DNA from: an uncultured Rhodobacterales bacterium
GTDB taxonomy: Bacteria; Pseudomonadota; Alphaproteobacteria; Rhodobacterales; Rhodobacteraceae
Assembly (NCBI GenBank): GCA_964559535.1
Contig: CAZLIC010000102.1
Coordinates: 1-12,891, forward strand
Length of the DNA: 12,891 nt
Direction: 5' to 3'
Below are positions 1,054-12,584 of this stretch, in pieces; the first letter of the stretch is position 1; every line of letters starts with the position of its first letter. The notes under the pieces are model-generated. The model had not been told where the DNA came from and searched no databases. It saw nothing but the letters and a program-made list of their open reading frames with translations. The position numbers were made by a program, and so were the translations under genes.

Positions 1054-1128
1054 GGGTGCGTGGCTCAGGGGTAGAGCGCCGGGTTTGAGGCCCGGAGGTC
1101 GGGGGTTCGAGTCCCTTCGCGTCCGCCA
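1054..1128 (+). tRNA. tRNA gene, 75 nt, encoded CCA, anticodon TGA (UGA). Class-I short variable arm with a G3-U70 acceptor wobble, so isotype is ambiguous (nominally Ser by anticodon, not by structure).
   Basis: Hand-folded cloverleaf:
- Acceptor GGGTGCG/CGCGTCC, 7 bp, with G3-U70 and U4-G69.
- U8. D-arm GCTC-AGGGGTA-GAGC with A14, G18G19 and A21.
- Anticodon stem CCGGG/CCCGG, perfect, with loop TTTGAGG: U33, anticodon TGA at 1086-1088, G37.
- Variable loop AGGTC, 5 nt.
- T-arm GGGGG-TTCGAGT-CCCTT with G53 T54 T55 C56 A58 C61.
- Discriminator G73, then CCA at 1126-1128. Confidence 0.7.
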
Positions 1129-1198
1129 TGATGTAGCTCAAGGGTAGAGCAGCAGACTGATAATCTGTCGGTAGCAGGTTCGACTCCTGCCATCTCCA
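1127..1198 (+). tRNA. Pseudo-tRNA or tRNA-like remnant with an Ile-type anticodon loop (CTGATAA, GAU). The top of the acceptor stem is defective and there is no encoded CCA.
   Basis: - D-arm GCTC-AAGGGTA-GAGC.
- Anticodon stem GCAGA/TCTGT with loop CTGATAA.
- Variable loop CGGTA.
- T-arm GCAGG-TTCGACT-CCTGC.
- The 3' acceptor strand CATCTCC pairs only 4 of 7 with the 5' strand CATGATG; positions 1-3 are mismatched.
- Its 5' strand overlaps the CCA of the preceding tRNA.
- It is followed by A-ACC rather than CCA. Confidence 0.4.
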
Positions 1199-2700: not shown

Positions 2701-4638
2701 TCAGAACAGGAAGTTCCCGGCGTCGGCGATCTCGGCCACCAGCGCGTCCAGCACGGTGATGCGCAGCGCGCCAAAGTCGATGCGCACGTCGGCGCCGTTC
2801 TGCGTGATGGTCAGGTCGCCCAGCGCGTTCGCCTCGCGCAGTTCGATCCGGTCGGTGCCATCGGCGAAGTCGGTGATCACGTCGCGCCCATCGGCCTGCA
2901 GGAAGGTGAAGGTGTCGGCGCCAAGGCCGCCGGTCAGCACGTCATTCTCGCGCCCGCCGACCAGCGTGTCGTTTCCGTCTCCCCCTGACAGCGTGTCGGC
3001 GCCGCGGCCGCCGGTCAGCAGATTGTTGTCCTCGCTGCCCGCAATCGCGTCTGCCCCGGTGCCGCCGATGGCGTTTTCCACCCCGATCATGGCCAGATAG
3101 CCCTGCGCCGGTGTGCCGCCCACCCCTGCGGGGTTCTGCCATTGGCTGGTGGACAGATCGAGCGTCAGGTTCGCGGTGAAGCGCGACAGGTCGATGGTGT
3201 CAACGCCGCCATCGCCCTGCACCTCGATGCCGAAGGTCGGGGTTCCGGGAGCGAAGGACAGCACGTCATCGCCGTCGCCCAGCACCACGAACCGAGCGCT
3301 GAGTGCCCCCAACGTCACCGTGTCGTTGCCATCGCCCGCCTCGACAAAGTCGATGCGGCCATCGACGGCGCTGATGGAGTCATTGCCCTCGCCCGAGCGC
3401 ACGGCAAAGGCCCGCCCCGACCCGATGGTGATATTGTCGCGGCCTTCGCGCGTTTCGACCAGCACGGTCCACTCGGAGCCGGTGGTGATGGTGTTGTTGC
3501 CGCTGCCGGCCAGGATGGAATCGATCTGCCCGTCCTGCACGGTGATCTTGTCAGCACCGTCATACGTCTGCAGCGAACCGATCTGGCCTGACTTGACCAA
3601 GACCGTGTTCTTGCCGTTGCCCAGCGTCACCAACTCGATTTCGCCGCCGTCGAGCGTCAGCCGGTCGGCTCCGTCATAGGCGACCACACTGCCGACGTAT
3701 CCCGTACCATCGACGGTCAGGGTGTTGTTGCCGCTGCCGAGGCTCACGGTCCCTGCGCCACCTTCCCCCCGGAAAGTGACGCGGTCATTGTTCGAGCCGA
3801 CCTGAATCTGCTCGACGAAGCCGTCAACCGTGATCACGTCCACCCCGCCTGAAAACCCGATGCTGCGCACGTCGGCATTCGCGCCGACGTTGATCGTGTT
3901 GGTGCCCGAGTAGGAGGTGATCGAGCCGTAGAAGCCGCCGGTCAAGTTCACAGTGCTGATGCCTGAGCCGAGGCTGAGTGCGTCGCCACCGGCCAGGAAT
4001 GTAAATGTGTTGTTGCCGTTGCTGCGGATCGAGCCGAACTCGCCGCCATTAGATATTGTGTTGGTGGAGCCGAAGCCAAACTCGATGGTGCCGATGCCAC
4101 CTGAGCTTCCGGTGACCGTATTGGTCGAGCCATTCCCGAAACTTAGAGCCTCAACAAAGCCTGTCCCGACGTTGAAAACGTTTATCCCTTGTCCGAGATA
4201 GGCGTATTGGAGGTTTCCCGATCCCATAGTTATTGTGTTGTCGGTTGCCCACAGGTCCATATAGCGCACCCGTTGGCTGCCCAACGTCAGGTTCACTGTC
4301 CCGCCGTCGTCACCCAAGATGAAATCGACCCGCGTATTGAAGAGTGTGATCGTCGTGTTGCTGTTTGCCGCCAGTTCGATGCGCTCCAGGCGCCGGATGA
4401 CACCGTCGTTCGTGTCAGAGATGTTCAAATCAAATTCGAACGCAGTTTCGTTGAAAAACCCGAGGTGACGGATGCGCCATGCCGGTCCCGATAGTCCGAT
4501 GTTGAGCGTATTGTCCTCGGTCGCAGTCTCGACCCCGAGGTTTGCGGCGTCCAGCCGCAGCCCGCTCCAGTTGAAAGTGCCGCCGTCGAAAGCGCTAAAA
4601 GATGTTGCGCCATCCAGCGTAATGCTCTGCGTCGCCAT
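2701..4638 (-). CDS. Large secreted-type repeat protein, candidate type I secretion substrate. The N-terminal Asn/Thr/Gly-rich beta-helix/beta-roll repeats are followed by C-terminal RTX hemolysin-type Ca-binding nonapeptides and a T1SS-like C-terminal tail.
   Basis: - Start ATG at 4638-4636 is preceded by GGGAGGA with a 4-nt spacer.
- About 30 degenerate ~19-aa repeats of the form GSGNNT-ITV-DG...YDGAD.
- C-terminal GGxGxDxUx units: GGRGADTLS, GGDGNDTLV, GGRENDVLT, GGLGADTFT.
- Then DVITDFADGTDRIEL...ITVLDALVAEIADAGNFLF.
- No T1SS ABC/MFP genes are in the window. Confidence 0.8.
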   Translation of the reverse strand: MATQSITLDGATSFSAFDGGTFNWSGLRLDAANLGVETATEDNTLNIGLSGPAWRIRHLGFFNETAFEFDLNISDTNDGVIRRLERIELAANSNTTITLFNTRVDFILGDDGGTVNLTLGSQRVRYMDLWATDNTITMGSGNLQYAYLGQGINVFNVGTGFVEALSFGNGSTNTVTGSSGGIGTIEFGFGSTNTISNGGEFGSIRSNGNNTFTFLAGGDALSLGSGISTVNLTGGFYGSITSYSGTNTINVGANADVRSIGFSGGVDVITVDGFVEQIQVGSNNDRVTFRGEGGAGTVSLGSGNNTLTVDGTGYVGSVVAYDGADRLTLDGGEIELVTLGNGKNTVLVKSGQIGSLQTYDGADKITVQDGQIDSILAGSGNNTITTGSEWTVLVETREGRDNITIGSGRAFAVRSGEGNDSISAVDGRIDFVEAGDGNDTVTLGALSARFVVLGDGDDVLSFAPGTPTFGIEVQGDGGVDTIDLSRFTANLTLDLSTSQWQNPAGVGGTPAQGYLAMIGVENAIGGTGADAIAGSEDNNLLTGGRGADTLSGGDGNDTLVGGRENDVLTGGLGADTFTFLQADGRDVITDFADGTDRIELREANALGDLTITQNGADVRIDFGALRITVLDALVAEIADAGNFLF

Positions 4639-4741
4639 CACGTCCTCCCAAAGCCGCGCCGCCCCGGAATGGGGCCGACCCACGCACCCGTGATCAGACT
4701 ATTGGCCTTTGTCCGGAAACGAGACTCTCTTTCGTATAGGG

Positions 4742-7075
4742 CTATTCCCCGTAGGGCACCCACACCGTCTTGACCTCGGTCGCCGTCCGCAGCGCAGCCT
4801 TCACGTCGAACGCGGCCCAGTCCACCGCCCGGCCGTAATTCACCCAGGTCCGCTTCACATTCCCCGCCGCCTCGCGCTCGACCAATCCGGACAGGTCCGA
4901 CGACGAGAAACACCACACCGCATCGACATCCAGGTGCGACGCCAGCGGCTTCGCCAGTTCCGCATGCGCCCCGGTCACGATGTTCACCACACCGCCCGGC
5001 ACGTCGGAGGTATCCAGCACCTGATAGAGGTCGGTCGCGGCCAGCGGGTAGGCCTCGGACGGCACCACCACCGAAGGGCAGCCCAGCGCCATCAGCGGGC
5101 CGACCAGCGACACCAGCCCCAGAAGCGGCGCCTCGTCAGGGCAGATCACCCCCGCCACACCCACCGGTTCGTTCATCGCCAGCGCCACGCCGCGCACCGG
5201 CACCGCGCGCACGGCGCCGTCCCACTTGTCCGCCCAGGCGGCGCAGGCGAACAGCCGGTCCACCGACGCCGCCACCTCGGCCGCCCCATCGCGCCCCGTC
5301 ATGTCGCGCAGCCGCCCGGCAAACTCGGCGGCCCGCGCCGACAGGTTCTCGGCCAGGTAATACAGCACCTGCGCCCGGTTCCACGCGGTGGCCCGGGCCC
5401 AGCCCTTGGCGGCATGCGCGGCCTCCACCGCGTTGCGGATGTCCTTGCGGTTGCCCAGGCCCGCATGGCCCAGAAGCCGCCCCTTGGGCGACCAGACCGC
5501 GCGGGAATAGCCGCCGTCCGGCCGCGCCTGGTTGCCGCCCACATACATCTTCGCCGTGCGGTCGATGCCTTCAACCACCGCCTCTGCCGGTTCGGCCACC
5601 GCCGCCACCTTCTTCAGCGGCTTGCCCACAGCGGCAGGGCGCAGGTAGGCCAGCATCCCCTCGCGCCCGCCTTCCCGGCCGAAGCCGCTTTCGCGCACCC
5701 CACCGAACCCGGCCGCCGCGTCGAACATGTTCGTGCCGTTCACCCACACCACGCCCGCGCGCAGCTTGGGCGCCATGTCGAGCGCCAGGTTCACGTTCTC
5801 GGTCCAGACCGTGGCCGCCAGCCCGTAACGCGAGTTGTTGGCCAGCGCGACCGCCTCTTCCGGCGTGCGGAAGGTCATGCTGACCAGCACGGGGCCGAAA
5901 ATCTCGTCCTGCATCAGCGGGCTGGCCGACCCCAGCCCGGAAATCAGCGTGGGCGGATAGAAGCAGCCCGCGGGCACCGCGCAGGCCGCGCGGTACACCG
6001 TGCCGTCGCCGTTGCCCTCTACCATGGCGGTGATGCGGGCCAGCTGTTCGGGGTGCACCACGGCGCCCACGTCAATGCACTTGTCCAAGGGGTCACCGAT
6101 GCGCAGCCCGTCCATCCGGCGCTTCAGCGCGGTGTGGAACCGCCCGGCCACGCCCTCCTGCACCAAGAGCCGCGACCCGGCACAGCAGACCTGCCCGCCG
6201 TTGAACCAGATGGCATCCACCAGCCCCTCGACCGCCGAGTCGAGATCGGCGTCGTCGAACACGATGTAGGGCGACTTGCCGCCCAGTTCGAGCGTCAGCG
6301 CCTTGCCGCTGCCCGCGGTGGCGGCGCGGATCTTCTTGCCCACCTCGGTAGAGCCGGTGAAGGCGACCTTGTCCACCGGGCTGGCCACCAGCGCCGCGCC
6401 GGTGGCGCCATCGCCGGTGACCACGTTCAGCACACCCTTCGGCAACCCGGCCTCACGCGAAATCTCGGCAAACAGAAGCGCGGTCAGCGGCGTCCATTCG
6501 GCGGGCTTCAGCACCACGCAATTGCCCGCGGCCAGCGCCGGGGCCACCTTCCAGGCCAGCATCAGCAGGGGGAAGTTCCACGGGATCACCGCGCCGCAGA
6601 CGCCATGCGGGACCATGCCGGGAAACTCCGTCTCGGCCAGCTGCGCCATGCCGGCGTGATAGCCGAAGTGACGGGCCACCAGCGGCACGTCGATGTCGCG
6701 CGATTCCCGGATGGGCTTGCCGTTGTCCATCGTCTCCAGCGTGGCCAAGAGGCGGGAATGCTTCTGCACCAACCGGCCCAGCGCATACAGAACCCGCGCG
6801 CGCGCTGCGCCCCCGGCCTTCGCCCATTTCGGCTGCGCGCGGCGGGCGCCAGCGACGGCTGCAGCCACATCCGCGTCAGACCCCTGCGTCACCTCGGCCA
6901 GCACCTTGCCGGTGGCAGGGTTGGTGGTGGCAAACACCTCGCCCGGTTCGGTAAACCGCCCGTCTATCCAGTGCCCGAACCGCCCCCCGTGACGCGCAAT
7001 CCAGGCCAGCGCCTCGGCATTGCCCTCGGGTGCGGGGCCGTACTCCATCGTGCGGAAGATGTCGGCGACGTTCAT
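4742..7075 (-). CDS. Two-domain aldehyde dehydrogenase family protein (~777 aa). It is a complete catalytic ALDH domain fused to a C-terminal truncated, non-catalytic ALDH-like (NAD-binding half) domain.
   Basis: - The N-terminal domain has the ALDH hallmarks FTGSTEVGK, LELGGKSP (catalytic Glu) and NGGQVCCAGSR (catalytic Cys).
- The C-terminal ~300 aa again resemble the first half of an ALDH (VGVAGVICPDEAPLLGL..., VVNIVTGAHAELAKPLASHLDVDAVWCFSSS) but lack the Cys and Glu motifs.
- Start ATG at 7075-7073 with a GGGGA upstream; stop TAG at 4744-4742. Confidence 0.85.
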   Translation of the reverse strand: MNVADIFRTMEYGPAPEGNAEALAWIARHGGRFGHWIDGRFTEPGEVFATTNPATGKVLAEVTQGSDADVAAAVAGARRAQPKWAKAGGAARARVLYALGRLVQKHSRLLATLETMDNGKPIRESRDIDVPLVARHFGYHAGMAQLAETEFPGMVPHGVCGAVIPWNFPLLMLAWKVAPALAAGNCVVLKPAEWTPLTALLFAEISREAGLPKGVLNVVTGDGATGAALVASPVDKVAFTGSTEVGKKIRAATAGSGKALTLELGGKSPYIVFDDADLDSAVEGLVDAIWFNGGQVCCAGSRLLVQEGVAGRFHTALKRRMDGLRIGDPLDKCIDVGAVVHPEQLARITAMVEGNGDGTVYRAACAVPAGCFYPPTLISGLGSASPLMQDEIFGPVLVSMTFRTPEEAVALANNSRYGLAATVWTENVNLALDMAPKLRAGVVWVNGTNMFDAAAGFGGVRESGFGREGGREGMLAYLRPAAVGKPLKKVAAVAEPAEAVVEGIDRTAKMYVGGNQARPDGGYSRAVWSPKGRLLGHAGLGNRKDIRNAVEAAHAAKGWARATAWNRAQVLYYLAENLSARAAEFAGRLRDMTGRDGAAEVAASVDRLFACAAWADKWDGAVRAVPVRGVALAMNEPVGVAGVICPDEAPLLGLVSLVGPLMALGCPSVVVPSEAYPLAATDLYQVLDTSDVPGGVVNIVTGAHAELAKPLASHLDVDAVWCFSSSDLSGLVEREAAGNVKRTWVNYGRAVDWAAFDVKAALRTATEVKTVWVPYGE

Positions 7076-7086
7076 TCCATGATCCC

Positions 7087-7139
7087 CGTTCTCATCTTTG
7101 CCCAAATACCCTGGGGGTCCGGGGGCAAGGCCCCCGGCG
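7087..7139. repeat. Copy A of a ~52-bp intergenic repeat with an internal GC hairpin (CCGGGGGC-aag-GCCCCCGG). It sits between the deoC stop and the ALDH start.
   Basis: The reverse complement matches 10827-10878 at 49/52 positions. Spurious six-frame ORFs read through both copies and give shared peptides (LIFAQIP.GSGG and SHLCPNT.GVRGQ). Confidence 0.75.
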
Positions 7140-7146
7140 CTCCCGG

Positions 7147-8154
7147 CTATCCCATCGCGTGGCGGTTGGCGGCGGAATAGGCGCCGGTCAGGAAATGCTC
7201 CAGCTGCCGTTCGATGTCGCCCAGCAGGGACGAGGCGCCGTAGCGGAACAGGTCGGGCTGCAGCCATGGGTCGCCCAGTTCGTCCTTCATCAAGGACAGG
7301 TACACCAGCGCATCCTTGGCCTTCGAGATGCCGCCCGCGGGCTTGTAGCCCACCTTGATGCCCGTTCGCGCCTCATAGGCGCGGATCGCCCGCACCATGG
7401 TCAGCGTGACCGGCAGCGTGGCGTTCACGCCTTCCTTCCCGGTCGATGTCTTGATGAAATCCGCCCCCGCCATCATGCACACCAGCGACGCCTTCATCAC
7501 GTTGCGCAGGGTGCCCAGTTCGCCGGTGGCCAGAATGGCCTTCACATGGGCATCGCCACAGGCCGCGCGCATCTCGGCCATCTCGTCATACAGCGCCTGC
7601 CAGTTGCCGGTCAGCGCATGGCGGCGCGAGATGACGATGTCGATTTCCTTTGCCCCAGCGGCCACGCTTTCGCGGATTTCCTGCACGCGCAGGTGCCAGG
7701 GCGACAGGCCCGCCGGAAACCCGGTGGACACGGCCGCCACCGGGATGCCCGAGCCTTCCAGCGCCTTCACCGCGGTTTCGACCATGTCGTGATACACGCA
7801 GACGGCGCCGACCTTCAGGTCCGGCATTCCCAGCCGGTCCAGCATCCAGGGCGCCACCGGCTGGCGCGCCTTGCTGCACAGCCGCTCCACCCGGCCCCAG
7901 GTATCGTCGCCCGACAGCGTGGTCAGGTCGATCAGCGTGACGGCCTTCAGCAGCCAGGCCGCCTGCCATTCCTTCTTGACCGACCGCCGCCCCGGCAGCG
8001 TGGCGCAGCGGCGTTCCACGGCGCTGGTGTTCACCTGCACGCCCGCCACCCAGTCCAGGTCCAGCGCCATGCCGGGGTTGCGCGGGTGGGCATGGCCGGG
8101 AATCACCTGGGGCAACTGGCCGGATGCCGCTTGTACCGGGGAAAGCGTGGTCAT
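7147..8154 (-). CDS. deoC: deoxyribose-phosphate aldolase (DERA), long-form DeoC.
   Basis: 335 aa. The active-site region FIKTSTGK contains the Schiff-base Lys. Flanking residues are conserved DERA ((beta/alpha)8 class I aldolase fold). Start ATG at 8154-8152 follows GAGGTGG; stop TAG at 7149-7147. Confidence 0.85.
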   Translation of the reverse strand: MTTLSPVQAASGQLPQVIPGHAHPRNPGMALDLDWVAGVQVNTSAVERRCATLPGRRSVKKEWQAAWLLKAVTLIDLTTLSGDDTWGRVERLCSKARQPVAPWMLDRLGMPDLKVGAVCVYHDMVETAVKALEGSGIPVAAVSTGFPAGLSPWHLRVQEIRESVAAGAKEIDIVISRRHALTGNWQALYDEMAEMRAACGDAHVKAILATGELGTLRNVMKASLVCMMAGADFIKTSTGKEGVNATLPVTLTMVRAIRAYEARTGIKVGYKPAGGISKAKDALVYLSLMKDELGDPWLQPDLFRYGASSLLGDIERQLEHFLTGAYSAANRHAMG

Positions 8155-8319: not shown

Positions 8320-9624
8320 ATGCCTGACCTTGACCTGACCGCGCATTGGGCCGGGATTCTGTCCCTGGTCATCTTCGTCACCGCCTATGTGCTGGTGGTG
8401 TTCGAGGAAGCCACGCACCTGCGCAAGTCGAAGCCCGTCATGCTGGCCGCCGGTCTGATCTGGGGGCTGATCGGCCTTGCCTATGTGATGGCCGGGCAGC
8501 CCGATGCCGCGCATGACCATGCGGCCGAGATCATCGAGGAATACGGCGAGCTGTTCCTGTTCCTGCTGGTGGCCATCACCTACGTGAACACCCTGGAGGA
8601 GCGGCGGGCGTTCGAGGTGCTGCGGGCGTGGCTGGTGGGCCTGGGGCTGGGCTACCGGGCGCTGTTCCTGCTGACAGGCATCCTGTCGTTCTTCCTGTCC
8701 GGGGTGCTGGACAACCTGACCACCGCGCTGGTGATGGGGGCCGTGGTGCTGGCCATCGGGCGCGGCGACGCGCGATTCGTGGCCATGGGCTGCGTGAACG
8801 TGGTGGTGGCCGCCAATGCGGGCGGGGCCTTTTCCCCCTTCGGCGACATCACCACGCTGATGGTCTGGCAGCAGGGCAAGCTGAGTTTCTTCGAGTTCTT
8901 CAACCTTTTCCTGCCCTCGGTCGTGAACTGGCTTGTGCCCGCGGCGCTGATGCTGGCCGCCGTGCCCGCCACAAGACCCCCGGCAATGACCGAAACCGTC
9001 ACCGCCAAGCCGGGCATGTGGGGCGTGGTGGTGCTGTTTGCGGCCACCATCGCCACCGCCGTGGCGTTCAAGAACTTTCTGCACCTGCCGCCCGCGCTGG
9101 GCATGATGCTGGGCCTTGGCTATCTGCAGATCTTCTCCTTCACCCTGCAGCGCAAGGGGCACCGGCACGGCGACGAGGACATGATCCTGGACAGCTTCCA
9201 GCAGGTGCAGAAGGTTGAATGGGACACGCTCTTGTTCTTCTTCGGCATCATCTTTGCGGTGGGGGGCCTTGGCGTGCTGGGCTATCTGGGGCTCGCCTCG
9301 GACTTCCTGTACGCCGACCTTGGCCCCACCTACGCCAACATCATCATCGGCGCGCTGTCGGCCATCGTCGACAACATCCCGCTGATGTTTGCCGTGCTGA
9401 CGATGGACCCGGCCATGTCCGACGGGCAGTGGCTGCTGATCACGCTGACCTGCGGCGTGGGCGGGTCGATGCTGTCCATCGGCTCGGCCGCGGGGGTGGC
9501 GCTGATGGGGCTGGCGAAGGGGGCCTACACCTTTTCGTCGCACCTGCGCTGGACCTGGGCCGTGGCGATGGGCTATGCGGCGTCCATTGCGGTGCATCTG
9601 TGGCTGAACGCAGCCCTGTTCTAG
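8320..9624 (+). CDS. ArsB/NhaD-superfamily permease, putative NhaD-type Na+/H+ antiporter. Polytopic membrane protein of 434 aa.
   Basis: 10 to 12 hydrophobic helices. NhaD-like N-terminus (HLRKSKPVMLAAGLIWGLIGLAY) and a duplicated half-transporter pattern. GGAG lies 9 nt upstream of the ATG. Stop TAG at 9622-9624. Confidence 0.7.
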   Translation: MPDLDLTAHWAGILSLVIFVTAYVLVVFEEATHLRKSKPVMLAAGLIWGLIGLAYVMAGQPDAAHDHAAEIIEEYGELFLFLLVAITYVNTLEERRAFEVLRAWLVGLGLGYRALFLLTGILSFFLSGVLDNLTTALVMGAVVLAIGRGDARFVAMGCVNVVVAANAGGAFSPFGDITTLMVWQQGKLSFFEFFNLFLPSVVNWLVPAALMLAAVPATRPPAMTETVTAKPGMWGVVVLFAATIATAVAFKNFLHLPPALGMMLGLGYLQIFSFTLQRKGHRHGDEDMILDSFQQVQKVEWDTLLFFFGIIFAVGGLGVLGYLGLASDFLYADLGPTYANIIIGALSAIVDNIPLMFAVLTMDPAMSDGQWLLITLTCGVGGSMLSIGSAAGVALMGLAKGAYTFSSHLRWTWAVAMGYAASIAVHLWLNAALF

Positions 9625-9701
9625 GGGCTTGGCCCCCTTGTGCGGAACCGGAAAACAGCTAACGTGCCGGTCCCCGCAGGGGGGCAATTGGGGGATACGG
9701 G

Positions 9702-10820
9702 ATGAAGCTCAGCATCGAGCGCGCGGCGCTGCTGAAGGCCGTCGGTCAGGCGCAGTCGGTCGTCGAACGGCGCAACACGATCCCCATCCTGGCGAACGTG
9801 CTGATCGAGGCCGAGGGCGCCAGCGTCAGCTTCCGCGCCACCGACCTGGACATTGAGGTGGTGGACCGCGCCCCCGCGATGGTGGAACGCCCCGGCGCCA
9901 CCACCGTGTCGGCGGTGACCCTGCATGAAATCGTGCGCAAGCTGCCCGATGGCGCGCTGGTCACGCTGACGTTTGACGCCGTGCAGCAGCGGCTGACGGT
10001 GGCCGCGGGACGGTCGACCTTCCAGCTGGCCACCCTGCCGCGCGAGGATTTCCCGGTGATGGCCAGCGCCGAGTACGCCTGCAGCTTCTCGGCCCCCGCG
10101 CCGCTGCTGCGGCGGCTGTTCGACAAGGCCAAGTTCGCGATTTCCACAGAAGAGACGCGGTACTACCTGAACGGCATCTACCTGCACACCGCCACCTCGG
10201 ATGGCGCCCGCGTGCTGCGTTGCGTGGCCACCGACGGCCACCGCCTGGCCCGCATCGACGCCCCATTGCCCGAAGGCGCCGACGCGATGCCGGGCGTCAT
10301 CGTGCCGCGCAAGACGGTGGGCGAGCTGATGAAGCTTCTGGACAGCGACGACGCGGTGATCGCGGTGTCGGTCAGCGAAACCAAGGTGCGCTTCGCCACC
10401 CCCGGCATCACCCTGACATCCAAGGTGATCGACGGCACCTTCCCCGATTACAGCCGGGTGATTCCGCTGGGCAACACCCGCAAGATGGAAGTCGACGCCG
10501 CCGAATTTGCCCGCGCGGTGGACCGGGTGGCGACCGTGTCGTCGGAACGGTCGCGCGCGGTGAAGCTGTCGCTGGAAGAGGACCGGCTGGTGCTGTCGGT
10601 GAACGCGCCGAATGCCGGCGCCGCCGAGGAGGAACTGGCCGTCGCCTATGACAGCGAGAAGCTGGAGATCGGGTTCAACGCCAAGTACCTCTTGGAGATT
10701 GCAAGCCAGGTGGACCGCGAGAACGCCGTGTTCCTGTTCAACTCCAGCGGCGACCCGACGCTGATGCGCGAAGGCGGCGATACCTCGGCACTGTATGTCG
10801 TGATGCCGATGCGCGTGTGA
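9702..10820 (+). CDS. dnaN: DNA polymerase III beta sliding clamp.
   Basis: 372 aa. Motifs include MKLSIERAALLKAVGQAQSVVERRNTIPILANVLIEA and LKLEIGFNAKYLLEIASQV, with the C-terminal ALYVVMPMRV. There is a GGGGGA RBS. Confidence 0.95.
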   Translation: MKLSIERAALLKAVGQAQSVVERRNTIPILANVLIEAEGASVSFRATDLDIEVVDRAPAMVERPGATTVSAVTLHEIVRKLPDGALVTLTFDAVQQRLTVAAGRSTFQLATLPREDFPVMASAEYACSFSAPAPLLRRLFDKAKFAISTEETRYYLNGIYLHTATSDGARVLRCVATDGHRLARIDAPLPEGADAMPGVIVPRKTVGELMKLLDSDDAVIAVSVSETKVRFATPGITLTSKVIDGTFPDYSRVIPLGNTRKMEVDAAEFARAVDRVATVSSERSRAVKLSLEEDRLVLSVNAPNAGAAEEELAVAYDSEKLEIGFNAKYLLEIASQVDRENAVFLFNSSGDPTLMREGGDTSALYVVMPMRV

Positions 10821-10826
10821 TGGACC

Positions 10827-10878
10827 GCCGGGGGCGCTGCCCCCGGACCCCCGGGGTATTTGGGCAAAGATGAGAACA
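10827..10878. repeat. Copy B of the ~52-bp hairpin repeat, in inverted orientation relative to copy A. It lies in the dnaN-recF spacer and includes the recF ATG.
   Basis: Sequence gccgggggcgctgcccccggacccccggggtatttgggcaaagATGagaaca. Its reverse complement aligns to 7088-7139 with 3 mismatches. Confidence 0.75.
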
Positions 10879-11967
10879 CAGGCCGGTTTTGCCGTTGCCC
10901 GGCTGACGCTGTCGCATTTCCGCAGCCACCGATTGACGCAGTTGGACCTGGGCGGGCGGACGGCGGTGTTCGCCGGGCCGAACGGGGCGGGCAAGACCAA
11001 TGTGCTGGAGGCGGTGTCGCTGCTGTCGCCCGGGCGCGGACTGCGGCGGGCCGAGGCGGCCGAACTGGCGCGGCAGCCCGAGGGAATTGGCTGGAAGGTG
11101 GTGGCCGACCTGACAGGGCCGGACGGGGATCATCAGGTGGAAAGCTGGGCCGGGCCGGGCGAGGCGCGGCAGGTGCGGATTGACGGCAAGGCGGCATCGC
11201 AGGCGGCGCTGGGGCGGCTGTGCCGTGTCCTGTGGCTGGTGCCAGCGATGGACCGGCTGTGGCTGGACGGGGCCGAGGGGCGTCGGCGGTTTCTGGACCG
11301 GGTGGCGCTGTCGTTCTATCCCGACCATGGCGAGGCGGTGCTGGGCTATGACAAGGCGATGCGCGAGCGCAACCGGCTGTTGAAGGACCAGGTGGCGGAT
11401 GCGCGCTGGTACCAGGCGCTGGAGGCGCAGATGGGGCAGGCGGCCGACCTGATTTCCGGCAACCGGCAGGCCGCGGTGGACCGCCTGCTGGCGGCGCAGG
11501 GCGGGGGCAGCGCCTTTCCGGCGGCCGCGCTGCAGCTGGTGTGCGAGGGGCCTGCGGTGGGAGAGGCGTTCCTGCGCGCGCTGGCCGAGGGGCGGCGGCG
11601 CGACATGGCGGCGGGGCGCACGCTGGCCGGGCCGCACCGGGCCGACCTTCTGGCGACCTATGCCGCGAAGGCGATGCCCGCCGCGCAGTGTTCCACCGGC
11701 GAGCAGAAGGCGCTGCTGATCCGCCTGATCCTGGCCAATGCCCGGGCGCTGGCCGATGACGCGGGCGCGCCGGTGCTGCTGTTGGACGAGGTGGCGGCGC
11801 ATCTGGACCCGGACCGGCGCGCGGCGCTGTATGACGAGATCGCGGCCCTGGGGACGCAGGCGCTGATGACGGGCACCGAGGCGGCGCTGTTTGACAGTCT
11901 GGGCGGCAGGGGGCAGGGATTTGCCGTCGCCGACGAGGGCGGCGAAACCCGGATCGTACCCGCATGA
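10870..11967 (+). CDS. recF: DNA replication and repair protein RecF.
   Basis: 365 aa. N-terminal [10 protein letters not shown] followed by Walker A ([17 protein letters not shown]). Contains the RecF signature and Walker B ([11 protein letters not shown]). It lies immediately downstream of dnaN. Confidence 0.9.
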
Positions 11968-12584
11968 CCGTGACCGGATACCAGCTGTTCCTTTACGCCC
12001 TTGGCATGGCGGGCCTGTGGGCGGTGCCGGGCCCGGTGTGGGTGGCGCTGACGGCGCGCGCCCTGTCGGGCGGCATGGCGGCGGCCTGGCCGCTGGCCGT
12101 GGGCGTGGCGCTGGGCGATCTCGTCTGGCCCCTGGCCGCCATTCTGGGCCTGACCTGGATCGAGAGCGTCTACGGCGACTTCCTGTCGCTGCTGCGCTGG
12201 GTGGCGGCCGTGGTGTTCCTGCTGATGGGGGTGATGCTGATCCGCAAGCCTGCTGTCGCCATGAACGCCGACAGCCGCCTGACCCGCCCCGGCCTGCTGG
12301 CGGGCTTTACCGTGGGGGTGGCGGCGGTGATCGGCAACCCCAAGGCGATCCTGTTCTACATGGGTGCGCTGCCCGGCTTCTTCGACCTTGGCCGGGTCAC
12401 CGCGCCCGACATCGCCGCGATCATCGCCATTTCGGCGGTTGTCCCCATGGCCGGGAACCTGGGCCTTGCGCTGTTCCTGGACCGGGCGCGCAGGCTGCTG
12501 TCGTCTCCTGCCGCGGTGCGGCGGCTGAACGTAGGGTCGGGGGTGCTGCTGATGGGTGTGGCCGTCGCAATTGCAGTTTACTGA
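11964..12584 (+). CDS. LysE/RhtB-family amino-acid exporter (translocator).
   Basis: 206 aa with 6 hydrophobic segments and the typical LysE architecture (VPGP motif, NPKAILFY). The start ATG overlaps the recF stop as ATGA (11964-11967). Stop TGA at 12582-12584. Confidence 0.75.

What the first reader, a model, noticed from the sequence alone, without database searches (positions are those of the whole stretch)
7087..7139. 52-bp hairpin repeat present in inverted copies that bracket deoC-nhaD-dnaN and carry a functional start codon
A (7087-7139) and B (10827-10878) are reverse complements at 49/52 nt. Two of the three differences fall in the predicted hairpin loop, consistent with selection for structure, as in REP or MITE-like elements. 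The conserved arm ...GGGGTATTTGGGCAAAGATGAGAAC contains an ATG.
- In copy B this ATG is the recF initiation codon (MRTQAG...).
- In copy A, read on the minus strand, the same ATG opens a 7-codon uORF (MRTGIME) whose TGA overlaps the aldehyde dehydrogenase ATG (ATGA). That is a classic translational-coupling arrangement.
The element therefore behaves as a portable hairpin plus start codon module sitting exactly at gene 5' ends. Two inverted copies 3.7 kb apart could also mediate inversion of the segment carrying dnaN.
Basis: seen in the sequence. Interest (0 to 1): 0.7.

Follow-up and report, generated by a model that had tools for sequence, protein, structure and literature searches.

The report
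Two copies of intergenic hairpin repeat
The two inverted 50-base sequences are copies of a short hairpin-plus-tail repeat found in the gaps between genes across Rhodobacterales bacteria; here one copy has come to supply the start codon of the repair gene recF, but the element is not a general start-codon cassette.

Summary
Windows 7088-7143 and 10822-10877 are reverse complements (56 nt, 93%), and no shuffle reproduces the shared 20-mer.

Both copies lie in the same direction as transcription: stop codon, 7-9 nt, an 8-bp G/C hairpin, ACCCCC, then the tail GGGTATTTGGGCAAAGATGAGAAC, then the next gene.

They belong to a repeat family that I found only in Rhodobacterales: 79 exact genome hits, 57 plasmid or chromid records and 53 metagenome loci. 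The family is mosaic. A nearly invariant tail is joined to interchangeable GC hairpins, and those hairpins show compensatory base changes.

Copies occur in both orientations relative to genes (29 sense-tandem, 17 antisense-tandem, 16 convergent, 8 divergent) and sit within a few bases of gene ends.

The tail ATG is a polymorphic position (GATGA, GAAGA or GAGGA). It is rarely in frame with the next gene (4 of 22).

In this lineage recF really does start at the tail ATG; relatives carry the same element but start at a GTG just after it. The deoC-ALDH copy is missing in two close relatives, which have 4-nt spacers. The 7-codon uORF exists, but nothing shows it is used.

No inversion isomer was seen. 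There is no Rfam family and I found no paper. Verdict: a new family of the REP/BIME kind; its mechanism is inferred, not shown.

The parts
10828..10846 (+). Copy B hairpin: stem 10828-10835 / 10839-10846 (CCGGGGGC / GCCCCCGG), loop GCT at 10836-10838. It begins 7 nt after the dnaN stop.
   Evidence: Sequence; fold; family covariation.
10847..10877 (+). Copy B linker and tail: ACCCCC-GGGGTATTTGGGCAAAGATGAGAAC. A mini-hairpin ACCC/GGGU is predicted; UAUUU is the only AU patch.
10870..10872 (+). ATG inside the tail of copy B, used as the recF start codon (MRTQAGF...).
   Evidence: First start of the ORF. The RecF model aligns from residue 10. Relatives: L145 and P0002 share this start, while L143, L041 and L146 start at a GTG after the element.
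7119..7137 (-). Copy A hairpin (CCGGGGGC-CTT-GCCCCCGG on the minus strand). It begins 9 nt after the deoC stop.
7088..7118 (-). Copy A linker and tail: ACCCCC-AGGGTATTTGGGCAAAGATGAGAAC, read on the minus strand.
7072..7095 (-). 7-codon uORF MRTGIME* that opens at the tail ATG of copy A. Its TGA overlaps the ALDH ATG (ATGA).
   Evidence: Translation. Whether it is translated is unknown.
4742..7075 (-). Aldehyde dehydrogenase family gene (777 aa); true start at 7075-7073 (MNVADIFRTMEYGPAPE).
   Evidence: N-termini of orthologues in L013 and L147-L154.
7147..8154 (-). deoC (deoxyribose-phosphate aldolase); stop TAG at 7149-7147, upstream of copy A.
9702..10820 (+). dnaN; stop TGA at 10818-10820, upstream of copy B.
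10870..11967 (+). recF, downstream of copy B.

Best explanation
SHOWN
- Both sequences are copies of a short (about 50-60 nt) dispersed intergenic repeat family that I found only in Rhodobacterales. It is of the REP/BIME kind.
- A unit has three parts: a G/C-rich stem-loop (here CCGGGGGC-NNN-GCCCCCGG), a short C-run/G-run linker, and a nearly invariant non-palindromic tail GGGTATTTGG(R)C(M)AAGA(T/A/G)GAAG.
- The family is mosaic. The same tail is joined to several interchangeable hairpin modules, and units also occur as tail-to-tail doublets.
- Units fill short gaps at gene ends in either orientation, with a moderate excess directly behind a stop codon in the sense direction.
- Units are gained and lost at some junctions and kept for long periods at others.
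- In this genome one unit sits between deoC and an aldehyde dehydrogenase gene, and one sits between dnaN and recF.
- The two units look inverted because the two operons are divergent, not because they form a functional pair.
- In this lineage the polymorphic tail position is T. That creates an ATG which has been taken over as the recF start codon, and which at the other copy opens a 7-codon uORF ending on the ALDH start.

INFERRED
- Once transcribed, the stem-loop forms 7-9 nt behind the upstream stop codon and acts as intercistronic mRNA punctuation. It would protect or partly terminate the upstream cistron.
- The single-stranded UAUUU would be a likely RNase E entry point.
- The purine-rich end of the tail would lie in the ribosome-binding region of the next gene.
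- The invariant tail is probably also the recognition site of the unidentified machinery that propagates or homogenises the family.
For: FAMILY AND TAXONOMIC RANGE
- The 59-mer hits 57 PLSDB records, dominated by Paracoccus, Cereibacter, Ruegeria and Sagittula, with a minority of weak partial hits outside the order.
- The 25-nt core hits 79 genome loci. Every one whose title names a taxon below class is Rhodobacterales/Paracoccaceae, with up to 8 loci per MAG.
- The tail 20-mer hits 53 metagenome loci, five of them on one 430-kb contig.

MOSAIC STRUCTURE
- The same tail follows short G5/C5 hairpins with at least 24 different loops, a long hairpin (GCGTTATCGGTT...AACCGATAACGC), and CGCC-TCC-GGCG.
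- Tail-to-tail doublets occur in L007, L053, L038, L106, L109, L115, L121, L124 and L128.

HAIRPIN UNDER SELECTION
- Among 45 distinct hairpins, the flanking and loop-closing pairs are Watson-Crick in 43-44 of 45, using 3 pair types each, and G-run and C-run lengths covary.
- On the model alignment, 86% of cells are paired versus 72% in shuffles (0 of 500 shuffles reach it), 7 of 8 pairs change on both sides, and slid controls are far lower.
- At the orthologous dnaN-recF site, L146 has GCGGGGGC/GCCCCCGC where the others have CCGGGGGC/GCCCCCGG.

CONTEXT
- Counts of 29/17/16/8 for sense-tandem, antisense-tandem, convergent and divergent.
- Stop codons lie a median 10.5 nt before the hairpin.
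- Downstream starts lie a median 13.5 nt after the tail, versus 34 nt on the hairpin side of antisense copies (p = 0.002).
- Copies sit between same-strand, closely spaced genes: nrdE-nrdF in L008 and gap-fba, followed by a Rubisco gene, in L010.

TURNOVER AND RETENTION
- dnaN-recF carries the element in every relative fetched by protein, unbiased with respect to DNA (L143, L145, L146), and in L041.
- deoC-ALDH carries it in L148, L149, L150 and L153, but L147 (95% DeoC) and L151 have 4-nt spacers and L013 lacks it.
- Hairpin modules differ at the same junction (L117 versus L062).

RNase E
- RNase E of R. sphaeroides prefers AU-rich sites (PMC6238624).
Against: - No mobilising enzyme, terminal inverted repeat or target-site duplication was identified, so mobility is inferred only from patchy presence and from genome-specific tail variants.
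- About 35-40% of copies are antisense to the adjacent genes. Any RNA function that depends on the tail sequence cannot apply to those copies.
- The simple terminator scan does not call either copy. The U-patch is 11 nt from the main stem.
- The source genome itself could not be searched, so its copy number is unknown.
- No expression, RNA-end or ribosome data were available. Every functional step (3' protection, RNase E entry, RBS contribution) is inference.
- The 5' hairpin arm and the tail beyond the seed were free to vary in each scan, but the seeds themselves enforce identity in the core. Conservation estimates from seeded loci are therefore inflated. Only the protein-fetched loci (L143-L154) are unbiased.
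Confidence: 0.75

Rival explanations
1. The element is a portable hairpin plus start-codon cassette selected to sit at gene 5' ends. It supplies initiation codons and coupling uORFs, and the inverted pair can flip the deoC-nhaD-dnaN segment.
For: - recF starts at the tail ATG here and in L145 and P0002.
- uORFs from a tail ATG end on the next start codon at window copy A (ATGA), L148 (ATGA, frame kept despite a 3-nt length difference), L150 (ATGA) and L146 (GTGA at recF).
- Downstream starts lie close to the tail.
Against: - The ATG is not conserved. Paracoccus tails read GAAGAAG, MAG JN10.003 reads GAGGAAG, and L143 reads GAAGAAG.
- 20 of 42 sense copies followed by a gene lack a tail ATG. 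Where one is present, it is in frame 4 times and out of frame 18 times, no better than the 1/3 expected by chance. In that wider set no uORF ends exactly on the called start.
- uORF peptides are not conserved (MRTGIME, MRDAGRLP, MRACR).
- 17 antisense-tandem and 16 convergent copies cannot serve a 5' end.
- Both junctions are ancestral adjacencies, and no contig links deoC to recF or dnaN to ALDH.
Confidence: 0.12
2. The element acts at the DNA level. The invariant tail is a binding site for a conserved Rhodobacterales protein (a nucleoid or gyrase/IHF-type factor, or a recombinase), as in enterobacterial BIMEs. Any RNA effects are incidental.
For: - The tail is conserved in sequence, not in structure, across many genera, while the hairpins are exchanged.
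- Both orientations relative to transcription are common.
- Tail-to-tail doublets make about 50-bp perfect palindromes.
- Cores are conserved better than flanking genes at orthologous sites.
Against: - No candidate protein is known.
- By eye, the tail does not fit the E. coli IHF consensus (WATCAANNNNTTR, recalled from memory).
- There is a moderate sense bias and depletion from divergent promoter regions: 8 of 70 against 17.5 expected.
- Nothing was tested directly.
Confidence: 0.2
3. It is an active MITE or half-MITE. The tail is the terminal inverted repeat (GGGG outermost, as I recall Tn3-family ends to be), the tail-to-tail doublet is the complete element, and single units are solo ends.
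For: - Doublets of the form GGGTATTTGGGCAAAGATGAA-N8-10-TTCATCTTTGCCCAAATACCC are recurrent.
- Presence is patchy at deoC-ALDH.
- Genome-specific tail variants suggest amplification within a genome.
Against: - Singles outnumber doublets by roughly ten to one.
- The hairpins are themselves repeated and conserved, so they are part of the unit and not target DNA.
- No target-site duplication is visible when filled sites are compared with empty ones.
- No autonomous element with these ends turned up in about 1 Mb of fetched loci.
- The one pair flanking about 950 bp (L125) encloses an ORF that looks like a cation-efflux transporter by eye, not a transposase.
Confidence: 0.12
4. The two copies are ordinary Rho-independent terminators, or a single local duplication of the recF leader.
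For: - A GC hairpin directly follows the stop codon, and a T-rich patch follows it.
Against: - Neither copy meets the terminator pattern.
- The same 50-nt sequence recurs at over a hundred unrelated loci in many genera.
- Copies lie between same-strand, closely spaced genes, nrdE-nrdF and gap-fba.
- The deoC-ALDH copy has orthologues in L148-L150, so it is not a recent copy of the recF leader.
Confidence: 0.02

Closest known systems
REP / BIME elements of Enterobacteria and Pseudomonas (including REPIN doublets mobilised by RAYT transposases)
   Same: - A short GC-rich imperfect palindrome, strictly extragenic and interspersed in many copies.
- Found in either orientation, mostly at 3' ends and between cistrons, and rare in divergent promoter regions.
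- Species-specific consensus variants.
- Some inverted doublets.
- A mosaic combination of palindromic units with a non-palindromic motif, as in BIMEs.
- The hairpin lies within about 15 nt of stop codons. From my own memory of Liang, Rudd and Deutscher 2015 (not retrievable here), REPs at that distance modulate translation of the upstream gene in E. coli.
   Different: - There is no GTAG or CGTC tag next to the palindrome, which is the feature used to define the two REP superfamilies (PMC3733652).
- The most conserved part is a 22-nt non-palindromic tail, not the palindrome.
- RAYT Group 1 is described as rare in Alphaproteobacteria (PMC5581495), and no RAYT could be looked for here.
- The copy number appears to be tens to about a hundred per genome rather than several hundred.
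RIME (Rhizobium-specific intergenic mosaic elements) and other alphaproteobacterial intergenic repeats
   Same: An alphaproteobacterial, intergenic, mosaic arrangement of palindromes restricted to one order.
   Different: The host order is different (Rhizobiales versus Rhodobacterales). I could not compare the sequences: RIME is known to me only from the citation seen. No Rfam family matches the present element.
Intercistronic mRNA stem-loops that set segmental stability (the puf operon of Rhodobacter; from my own memory, malE-malF REP in E. coli)
   Same: A stable hairpin between cistrons of one operon, next to an AU-rich RNase E-type site (PMC6238624). This is what the element would work like in sense orientation.
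   Different: Those are single-locus structures, not a dispersed repeat family. No RNA data exist for the present element.
Rho-independent terminators
   Same: A GC-rich stem-loop just after a stop codon, followed by a T-containing stretch.
   Different: The T patch (TATTT) is 11 nt from the main stem and short. The pattern scan does not call it. Copies occur between same-strand, closely spaced genes and in antisense orientation.

Membership tests
REP / REPIN-RAYT | A short imperfect palindrome that forms a stem-loop, maintained across copies | tested here: met
   8-bp stem in both copies. Compensatory changes across 45 distinct hairpins. Covariation exceeds shuffled and slid controls.
REP / REPIN-RAYT | Extragenic, interspersed, many copies per genome | tested here: met
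   79 genome loci, 53 metagenome loci and 57 plasmid records, nearly all intergenic. Up to 8 exact-core copies in one fragmentary MAG and 5 exact tails on one 430-kb contig. The source genome itself was not available.
REP / REPIN-RAYT | A conserved GTAG or CGTC tetranucleotide at one end of the palindrome | tested here: not met
   Neither tag nor its complement flanks the hairpin in the 104 aligned units. The 5' flank is variable and the 3' flank is ACCCCC. Definition taken from PMC3733652.
REP / REPIN-RAYT | Organisation as inverted doublets (REPINs) | tested here: inconclusive
   Tail-to-tail doublets exist (L007, L053, L038, L106, L109, L115, L121, L124, L128), but singles predominate. The two window copies are 3.7 kb apart and are not a doublet.
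REP / REPIN-RAYT | A single-copy RAYT (Y1 transposase) gene flanked by the repeats | not testable with these tools
   No whole genome of a host could be scanned. None was seen by chance in the fetched loci.
BIME / RIME-type mosaic elements | Palindromic units combined with other conserved motifs in several arrangements | tested here: met
   One tail is joined to at least four hairpin architectures, and hairpin modules differ at orthologous junctions.
BIME / RIME-type mosaic elements | Binding of host proteins (IHF, gyrase, Pol I) to the motifs | not testable with these tools
   This needs experiments.
MITE | Terminal inverted repeats at both ends of each unit | tested here: not met
   The 5' end (hairpin) and the 3' end (tail) of a unit are unrelated. 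Only doublets are palindromic.
MITE | A target-site duplication flanking insertions | tested here: inconclusive
   Comparing filled sites (window, L148-L150) with empty ones (L147 TAA-GGCC-ATG, L151 TAG-CGCC-ATG) shows no clear duplication, but the flanks are too short and too diverged to be sure.
Rho-independent terminator | A GC-rich stem immediately followed by a U-tract | tested here: not met
   The scan finds 3 sites in the window, none at either copy. TATTT starts 11 nt after the stem.
uORF-mediated translational coupling | A uORF conserved at orthologous junctions, with its stop overlapping the downstream start | tested here: inconclusive
   ATGA overlap in the window, L148 and L150. 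L149 overlaps by 10 nt. L153 has no ATG. L147 and L151 have no element. Peptides are not conserved. In the wider family no uORF ends exactly on the called start.
Rfam-curated RNA families | A match to any covariance model | tested here: not met
   No hit covers either element at E <= 1 in the window; the only nearby row, snoR113 at 10862-10929, scores 21.4 bits against a 47-bit threshold at E = 1 and is chance. No hit in seven loci with doublets or long variants.

The most novel reading that the evidence does not exclude
The element may be more than selfish filler. On this reading an undescribed, Rhodobacterales-wide mosaic module is kept by selection as standard intercistronic punctuation. 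Its hairpin would fix the 3' end and the termination behaviour of the upstream cistron. Its invariant UAUUU tail would be a dedicated RNase E or protein recognition site. Its purine-rich end, sometimes with an ATG, would act as a ready-made translation-initiation region, so that insertion, loss or a single-base change in the tail re-tunes expression or moves start codons, as at recF.
Probability: 0.15. Interest if true: 0.65.

Novelty: new member of a known kind. Interest (0 to 1): 0.35.

Why it matters
- Practical. The family confuses annotation and assembly in an ecologically important order. ORF lists and database proteins read straight through it: the 841-aa ORF across copy A, and RecF and transporter N-termini that are translated element. 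Three of five short-read contigs carrying this deoC stop at its foot, and a fourth ends in a poly-G run. A covariance model (R1) now recognises it.
- Biological. It gives a clean example of a start codon migrating into a repeat. recF starts at a GTG just after the element in relatives and at an ATG inside it here.
- Wider. It defines an apparently undescribed repeat family whose invariant 22-nt tail points to an unknown, order-wide trans-acting factor. If the punctuation model holds, the family would be a natural toolkit for tuning operon stoichiometry in high-GC bacteria.

Tried and rejected
- Local duplication of the recF leader. Rejected by the family survey.
- Plain terminator. Rejected (and the positions between same-strand genes).
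- GTAG/CGTC REP superfamilies. The tag is absent.
- Rfam. No family covers the element.
- Phage or att origin. Only one weak, irrelevant hit in 50,697 phage records.
- Exact window-specific 24-mer in JGI metagenomes. 0 hits, so other copies from the source organism could not be collected.
- Tail-only BLAST against plasmids. Too short to be informative.
- Tail-only nhmmer. Low sensitivity.
- My first tail regex was too strict and was discarded.
- MAFFT alignments put hairpin arms out of register. Pairs were therefore counted by parsing and on a model-based alignment.
- Transposase between inverted copies. The only such pair (L125) flanks an ORF that looks like a cation-efflux transporter by eye.
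- Literature. Ten searches and seven papers read found no description of the family, and no paper contained any of seven sequence strings from the element.
- The Liang et al. REP-translation paper could not be retrieved and is cited from memory only.
- In-frame use of the tail ATG as a family property. Rejected.
- Inversion isomers. None seen, but short-read contigs often break at the element, so low-frequency isomers are not excluded.
Full report
**1.

The window contains one outstanding inverted repeat: arms 7088-7143 and 10822-10877, 56 nt and 93% complementary. The next best pair is 38 nt at 71%. The shared 20-mer GGGTATTTGGGCAAAGATGA occurs exactly twice and in none of 200 dinucleotide-preserving shuffles.

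Read in register, the copies are:
- Copy A, minus strand: CCGGGGGC-CTT-GCCCCCGG-ACCCCC-A-GGGTATTTGGGCAAAGATGAGAAC
- Copy B, plus strand: CCGGGGGC-GCT-GCCCCCGG-ACCCCC-G-GGGTATTTGGGCAAAGATGAGAAC

Both fold into an 8-bp stem with a 3-nt loop. Total folding energy is no better than shuffles because the sequence is so GC-rich, so thermodynamics alone proves nothing.

**2. GENE CONTEXT: THE INVERSION IS A CONSEQUENCE OF DIVERGENT OPERONS**

NCBIfam assigns the following genes:

| Coordinates | Strand | Gene |
|---|---|---|
| 4742-7075 | - | 777-aa aldehyde dehydrogenase family protein |
| 7147-8154 | - | deoC |
| 8320-9624 | + | nhaD |
| 9702-10820 | + | dnaN |
| 10870-11967 | + | recF |
| 11964-12584 | + | LysE-type exporter |

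Each copy is co-oriented with its own operon:
- deoC stop, 9 nt, hairpin, tail, ALDH start.
- dnaN stop, 7 nt, hairpin, tail, recF start.

The ALDH start is the ATG at 7075-7073 (MNVADIFRTMEYGPAPE). Orthologues support this. The 841-aa ORF is a read-through artefact.

**3. IT IS A FAMILY FOUND ACROSS RHODOBACTERALES**

- BLAST of the 59-mer against PLSDB gives 57 records, dominated by Paracoccus, Cereibacter, Ruegeria, Sagittula, Leisingera and Gemmobacter. A minority of weak partial hits fall outside the order. Almost all hits have no annotated feature under them.
- A genome scan with GCCCCCGGACCCCCNGGGTATTTGG returns 79 loci. Every title that names a taxon below class is Rhodobacterales/Paracoccaceae (Rhodobacter, Paracoccus, Gemmobacter, Defluviimonas, Phaeovulum, Rhodovulum, Tabrizicola and others). 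Up to eight come from one fragmentary MAG.
- The 5' hairpin arm was not part of the search pattern, yet it is present in essentially every hit.
- The tail 3' of GGGTATTTGG differs by genome: GGGTCAAGAGGAAGGGG in MAG JN10.003, GGACAACGAAGAAGAGG in Paracoccus, GGACAATGAAGAAG in Defluviimonas and GGACGAAGGAGAAG in Phaeovulum. This is the signature of amplification or homogenisation within a genome.
- The exact window-type 24-mer is absent from JGI metagenomes.
- The 20-mer tail finds 53 loci, five of them on one 430-kb contig.
- Model R1 finds about a dozen unseeded extra copies in 380 kb of those loci. That suggests tens to about a hundred units per genome in element-rich hosts. This is a rough estimate and is biased by how the loci were chosen.

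**4. ARCHITECTURE: A MOSAIC WITH AN INVARIANT TAIL**

Loci seeded by the tail alone show the same tail behind many different upstream modules:
- G5/C5 hairpins with loops GCT, CCAG, TTTCACA, CTTCG and others.
- Variants with an extra second hairpin.
- A long hairpin, GCGTTATCGGTT...AACCGATAACGC.
- A small CGCC-TCC-GGCG hairpin.

The run of C before the tail and the GGGG(T) that opens the tail are predicted to form a mini-hairpin just before AUUU. Tail-to-tail doublets form about 50-bp palindromes in at least nine loci.

The hairpin is maintained by compensatory change. Among 45 distinct simple hairpins:
- The pair next to the G-run is Watson-Crick in 44 of 45 (C-G 40, T-A 3, A-T 1).
- The next pair out is Watson-Crick in 43 of 45 (C-G 32, G-C 10, T-A 1).
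- The loop-closing pair is Watson-Crick in 44 of 45 (C-G 39, T-A 4, A-T 1).
- G-run and C-run lengths covary.

On a model-based alignment of 75 distinct units:
- 86.3% of cells pair, versus 72.2% in shuffles (0 of 500 shuffles reach it).
- 7 of 8 pairs show changes on both sides.
- Slid controls drop to 51-70%.
- Caveat: the alignment was fitted to the model.

**5. WHERE COPIES SIT**

Genes were called with a GC-frame ORF caller that reproduces the window's gene map. Results:
- 102 unique tails fall as 29 sense-tandem, 17 antisense-tandem, 16 convergent and 8 divergent, with the rest undetermined. Earlier subsets agree.
- Against equal expectation, my hand calculation on the counts gives chi-square of about 13 on 3 df. 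It reflects an excess behind a stop codon in sense orientation and a deficit in divergent promoter regions. Both orientations are common.
- Units essentially fill the spacer. The upstream stop is a median 10.5 nt from the hairpin, and a convergent stop is a median 16 nt from the tail.
- Downstream starts are a median 13.5 nt after the tail. Starts on the hairpin side of antisense copies are a median 34 nt away (Mann-Whitney p = 0.002).
- Units lie between same-strand, closely spaced genes: nrdE-nrdF in P. aestuarii, and gap-fba followed by a Rubisco gene in C. azotoformans. This argues against a strong terminator. The pattern scan calls neither window copy.

**6. HISTORY OF THE TWO WINDOW COPIES**

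*dnaN-recF.* Relatives fetched through RecF protein similarity are unbiased with respect to the DNA. All of them carry the element at this junction: L145 (87% nt), L143/L144 (85%) and L146 (80%). The scan hit L041 does too.

The recF start differs between them:
- The window, L145 and P0002 start at the tail ATG (MRTQAGF...).
- L143 has tail GAAGAAG and starts at a GTG 8 nt later (VTGFRITRLT...).
- L041 has tail GAGGAAG and also starts at a following GTG.
- In L146 the tail ATG opens an 11-codon uORF whose TGA overlaps the recF GTG.

In the window the codon aligned with that GTG is CAG. Reading the sequence, no other ATG, GTG or TTG precedes the conserved [10 protein letters not shown]. So the start codon has moved three codons upstream into the repeat.

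*deoC-ALDH.* Presence is patchy:
- Present in L148 (93% DeoC), L149 (88%) and L150 (87%).
- Present as a long, degenerate variant in L153/L154 (92%).
- Absent in L147 (95%; TAA-GGCC-ATG) and L151 (87%; TAG-CGCC-ATG).
- Absent in L013.
- L152 has an unrelated 330-nt AT-rich insert at this position.

This junction therefore gains or loses the unit on short timescales. No target duplication is discernible. Elsewhere, orthologous junctions carry different hairpin modules with the same tail (L117 versus L062), and one junction is filled in L019 but empty in L048.

**7.

*Start-codon module.* The ATG is one allele of a polymorphic tail position.
- 20 of 42 sense copies followed by a gene have no tail ATG.
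- Of the 22 that have one, it is in frame with the downstream gene in 4 and out of frame in 18. That is no better than chance.

*uORF coupling.* MRTGIME* exists. L148 and L150 also have uORFs ending in ATGA on the ALDH start. Against that:
- The ALDH gene begins ATGA, so any upstream ORF in the right frame (1 in 3) ends there.
- The peptides are unrelated.
- L153 has no ATG, and L147 and L151 manage with a 4-nt spacer.
- In the wider family no uORF ends exactly on a called start.
- Coupling remains possible but unsupported.

*Inversion.*
- dnaN-recF and deoC-ALDH are the ancestral adjacencies in all relatives.
- Six Logan contigs cross copy B, and one (L155) crosses copy A, all in the window arrangement.
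- None links deoC to recF.
- Three contigs end exactly at the foot of hairpin A and one ends in poly-G. Short reads therefore cannot exclude rare isomers.

**8. HOW IT MOST LIKELY WORKS**

*Shown.* It is a dispersed, structurally constrained, mosaic intergenic repeat with turnover at some sites and long retention at others.

*Inferred.*
- In transcripts the stem-loop forms 7-9 nt after the stop codon. There it can protect the 3' end of the upstream cistron or attenuate read-through. By analogy with E. coli REPs (from my own memory, not verified here), it could also interfere with terminating ribosomes.
- The invariant UAUUU is the only AU-rich single-stranded patch in a roughly 70% GC element. 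RNase E of R. sphaeroides prefers AU-rich sites (PMC6238624). Cleavage there would separate a hairpin-capped upstream fragment from a downstream fragment that begins just before its ribosome-binding region.
- Because the hairpin is symmetric, part of this would also work in antisense copies. The tail-dependent part would not.
- Sequence-level invariance of the tail across genera, set against freely exchanged hairpins, points to a trans-acting factor that recognises it and has not been identified. That factor could serve propagation or homogenisation, or be a DNA- or RNA-binding protein.

**9. COMPARISON WITH WHAT IS KNOWN**

- The element works like, and looks like, REP/BIME elements. It fails one defining test for the two described REP superfamilies: it has no GTAG or CGTC tag (PMC3733652).
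- A RAYT partner could not be sought. RAYT Group 1 is described as rare in Alphaproteobacteria (PMC5581495).
- It is not a MITE by terminal repeats, and not a terminator by pattern.
- No Rfam 15 family covers it.
- It is not in the phage collection.
- The paper surveying Paracoccus transposable elements does not mention it (PMC3281130).
- No paper in the library contains any of seven sequence strings taken from it.
- I therefore file it as a new family of a known kind.

**10. VERDICT**

- The recF start-codon observation is right and is a nice case of exaptation.
- The portable start-codon cassette and the inversion switch are not supported.
- Interest is moderate (0.35). The family is apparently undescribed and widespread, and it has an intriguing invariant tail. 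It belongs to a familiar class, and its mechanism is still inference.

Noticed in passing
window 1054-1198 (+): Two abutting tRNA-like genes. The first is a 75-nt class-I tRNA with anticodon UGA (it would read the Ser codon UCA) but without the long variable arm of tRNA-Ser; CCA is encoded and GC is 0.72. It is followed directly by a tRNA-Ile(GAU)-like gene with GC 0.52, whose outer three acceptor pairs do not match (Rfam aligns model positions 4-67 only).
   Followed up: partly
L156, L157, L159 (ends of contigs); L158: Independent Logan short-read contigs that carry the window's exact DeoC stop precisely at ...TAGCCGGGAGCG, the 5' foot of hairpin A. One ends in a poly-G run. The element breaks assemblies.
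   Followed up: partly
window 4742-7267 (-); RecF homologue P0030; L125 43-1005: ORF lists and database proteins read straight through the stop-free, GC-rich element. Examples are an 841-aa ORF across copy A, a RecF N-terminus ...GGLAPPAPPVGYLSKEEA, and a transporter-like ORF that begins MPKYPGGSGGQSPPAPG. All three are translated repeat.
   Followed up: partly
L117 11340-11430 versus L062 500-560; L153 1293-1401 versus window 7076-7146: The same orthologous junction carries the same tail but a different hairpin module (long versus short). This suggests replacement or conversion between family members.
   Followed up: partly
L152 1229-1560: A Gemmobacter MAG has an unrelated, roughly 330-nt AT-rich insert at the deoC-ALDH junction, exactly where other genomes carry the repeat or a 4-nt spacer.
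   Followed up: no
window about 9634-9651: Similarity to the closest relatives (L143, L145; 85-87% nt over dnaN-recF-LysE) stops just upstream of dnaN. The ALDH-deoC-nhaD block next to dnaN is not seen there in these relatives; L143 has an aspartate/ornithine carbamoyltransferase-family gene at that position.
   Followed up: partly
window 4742-7075 (-): The aldehyde dehydrogenase is 777 aa with two Aldedh matches. It is conserved as the gene right after deoC in many Paracoccaceae. The function of the pairing was not examined.
   Followed up: no
window 2701-4683 (-): A 660-aa RTX/serralysin-type calcium-binding repeat protein. Direct-repeat families D1-D5 of the repeat scan lie largely within it.
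   Followed up: no
L146 76-125; L148 2190-2232; L150 5020-5062: uORFs that open at a tail ATG and end with a stop overlapping the next gene's start (GTGA at recF; ATGA at ALDH) recur at the two junctions studied, but not in the wider family. This is possibly chance.
   Followed up: partly
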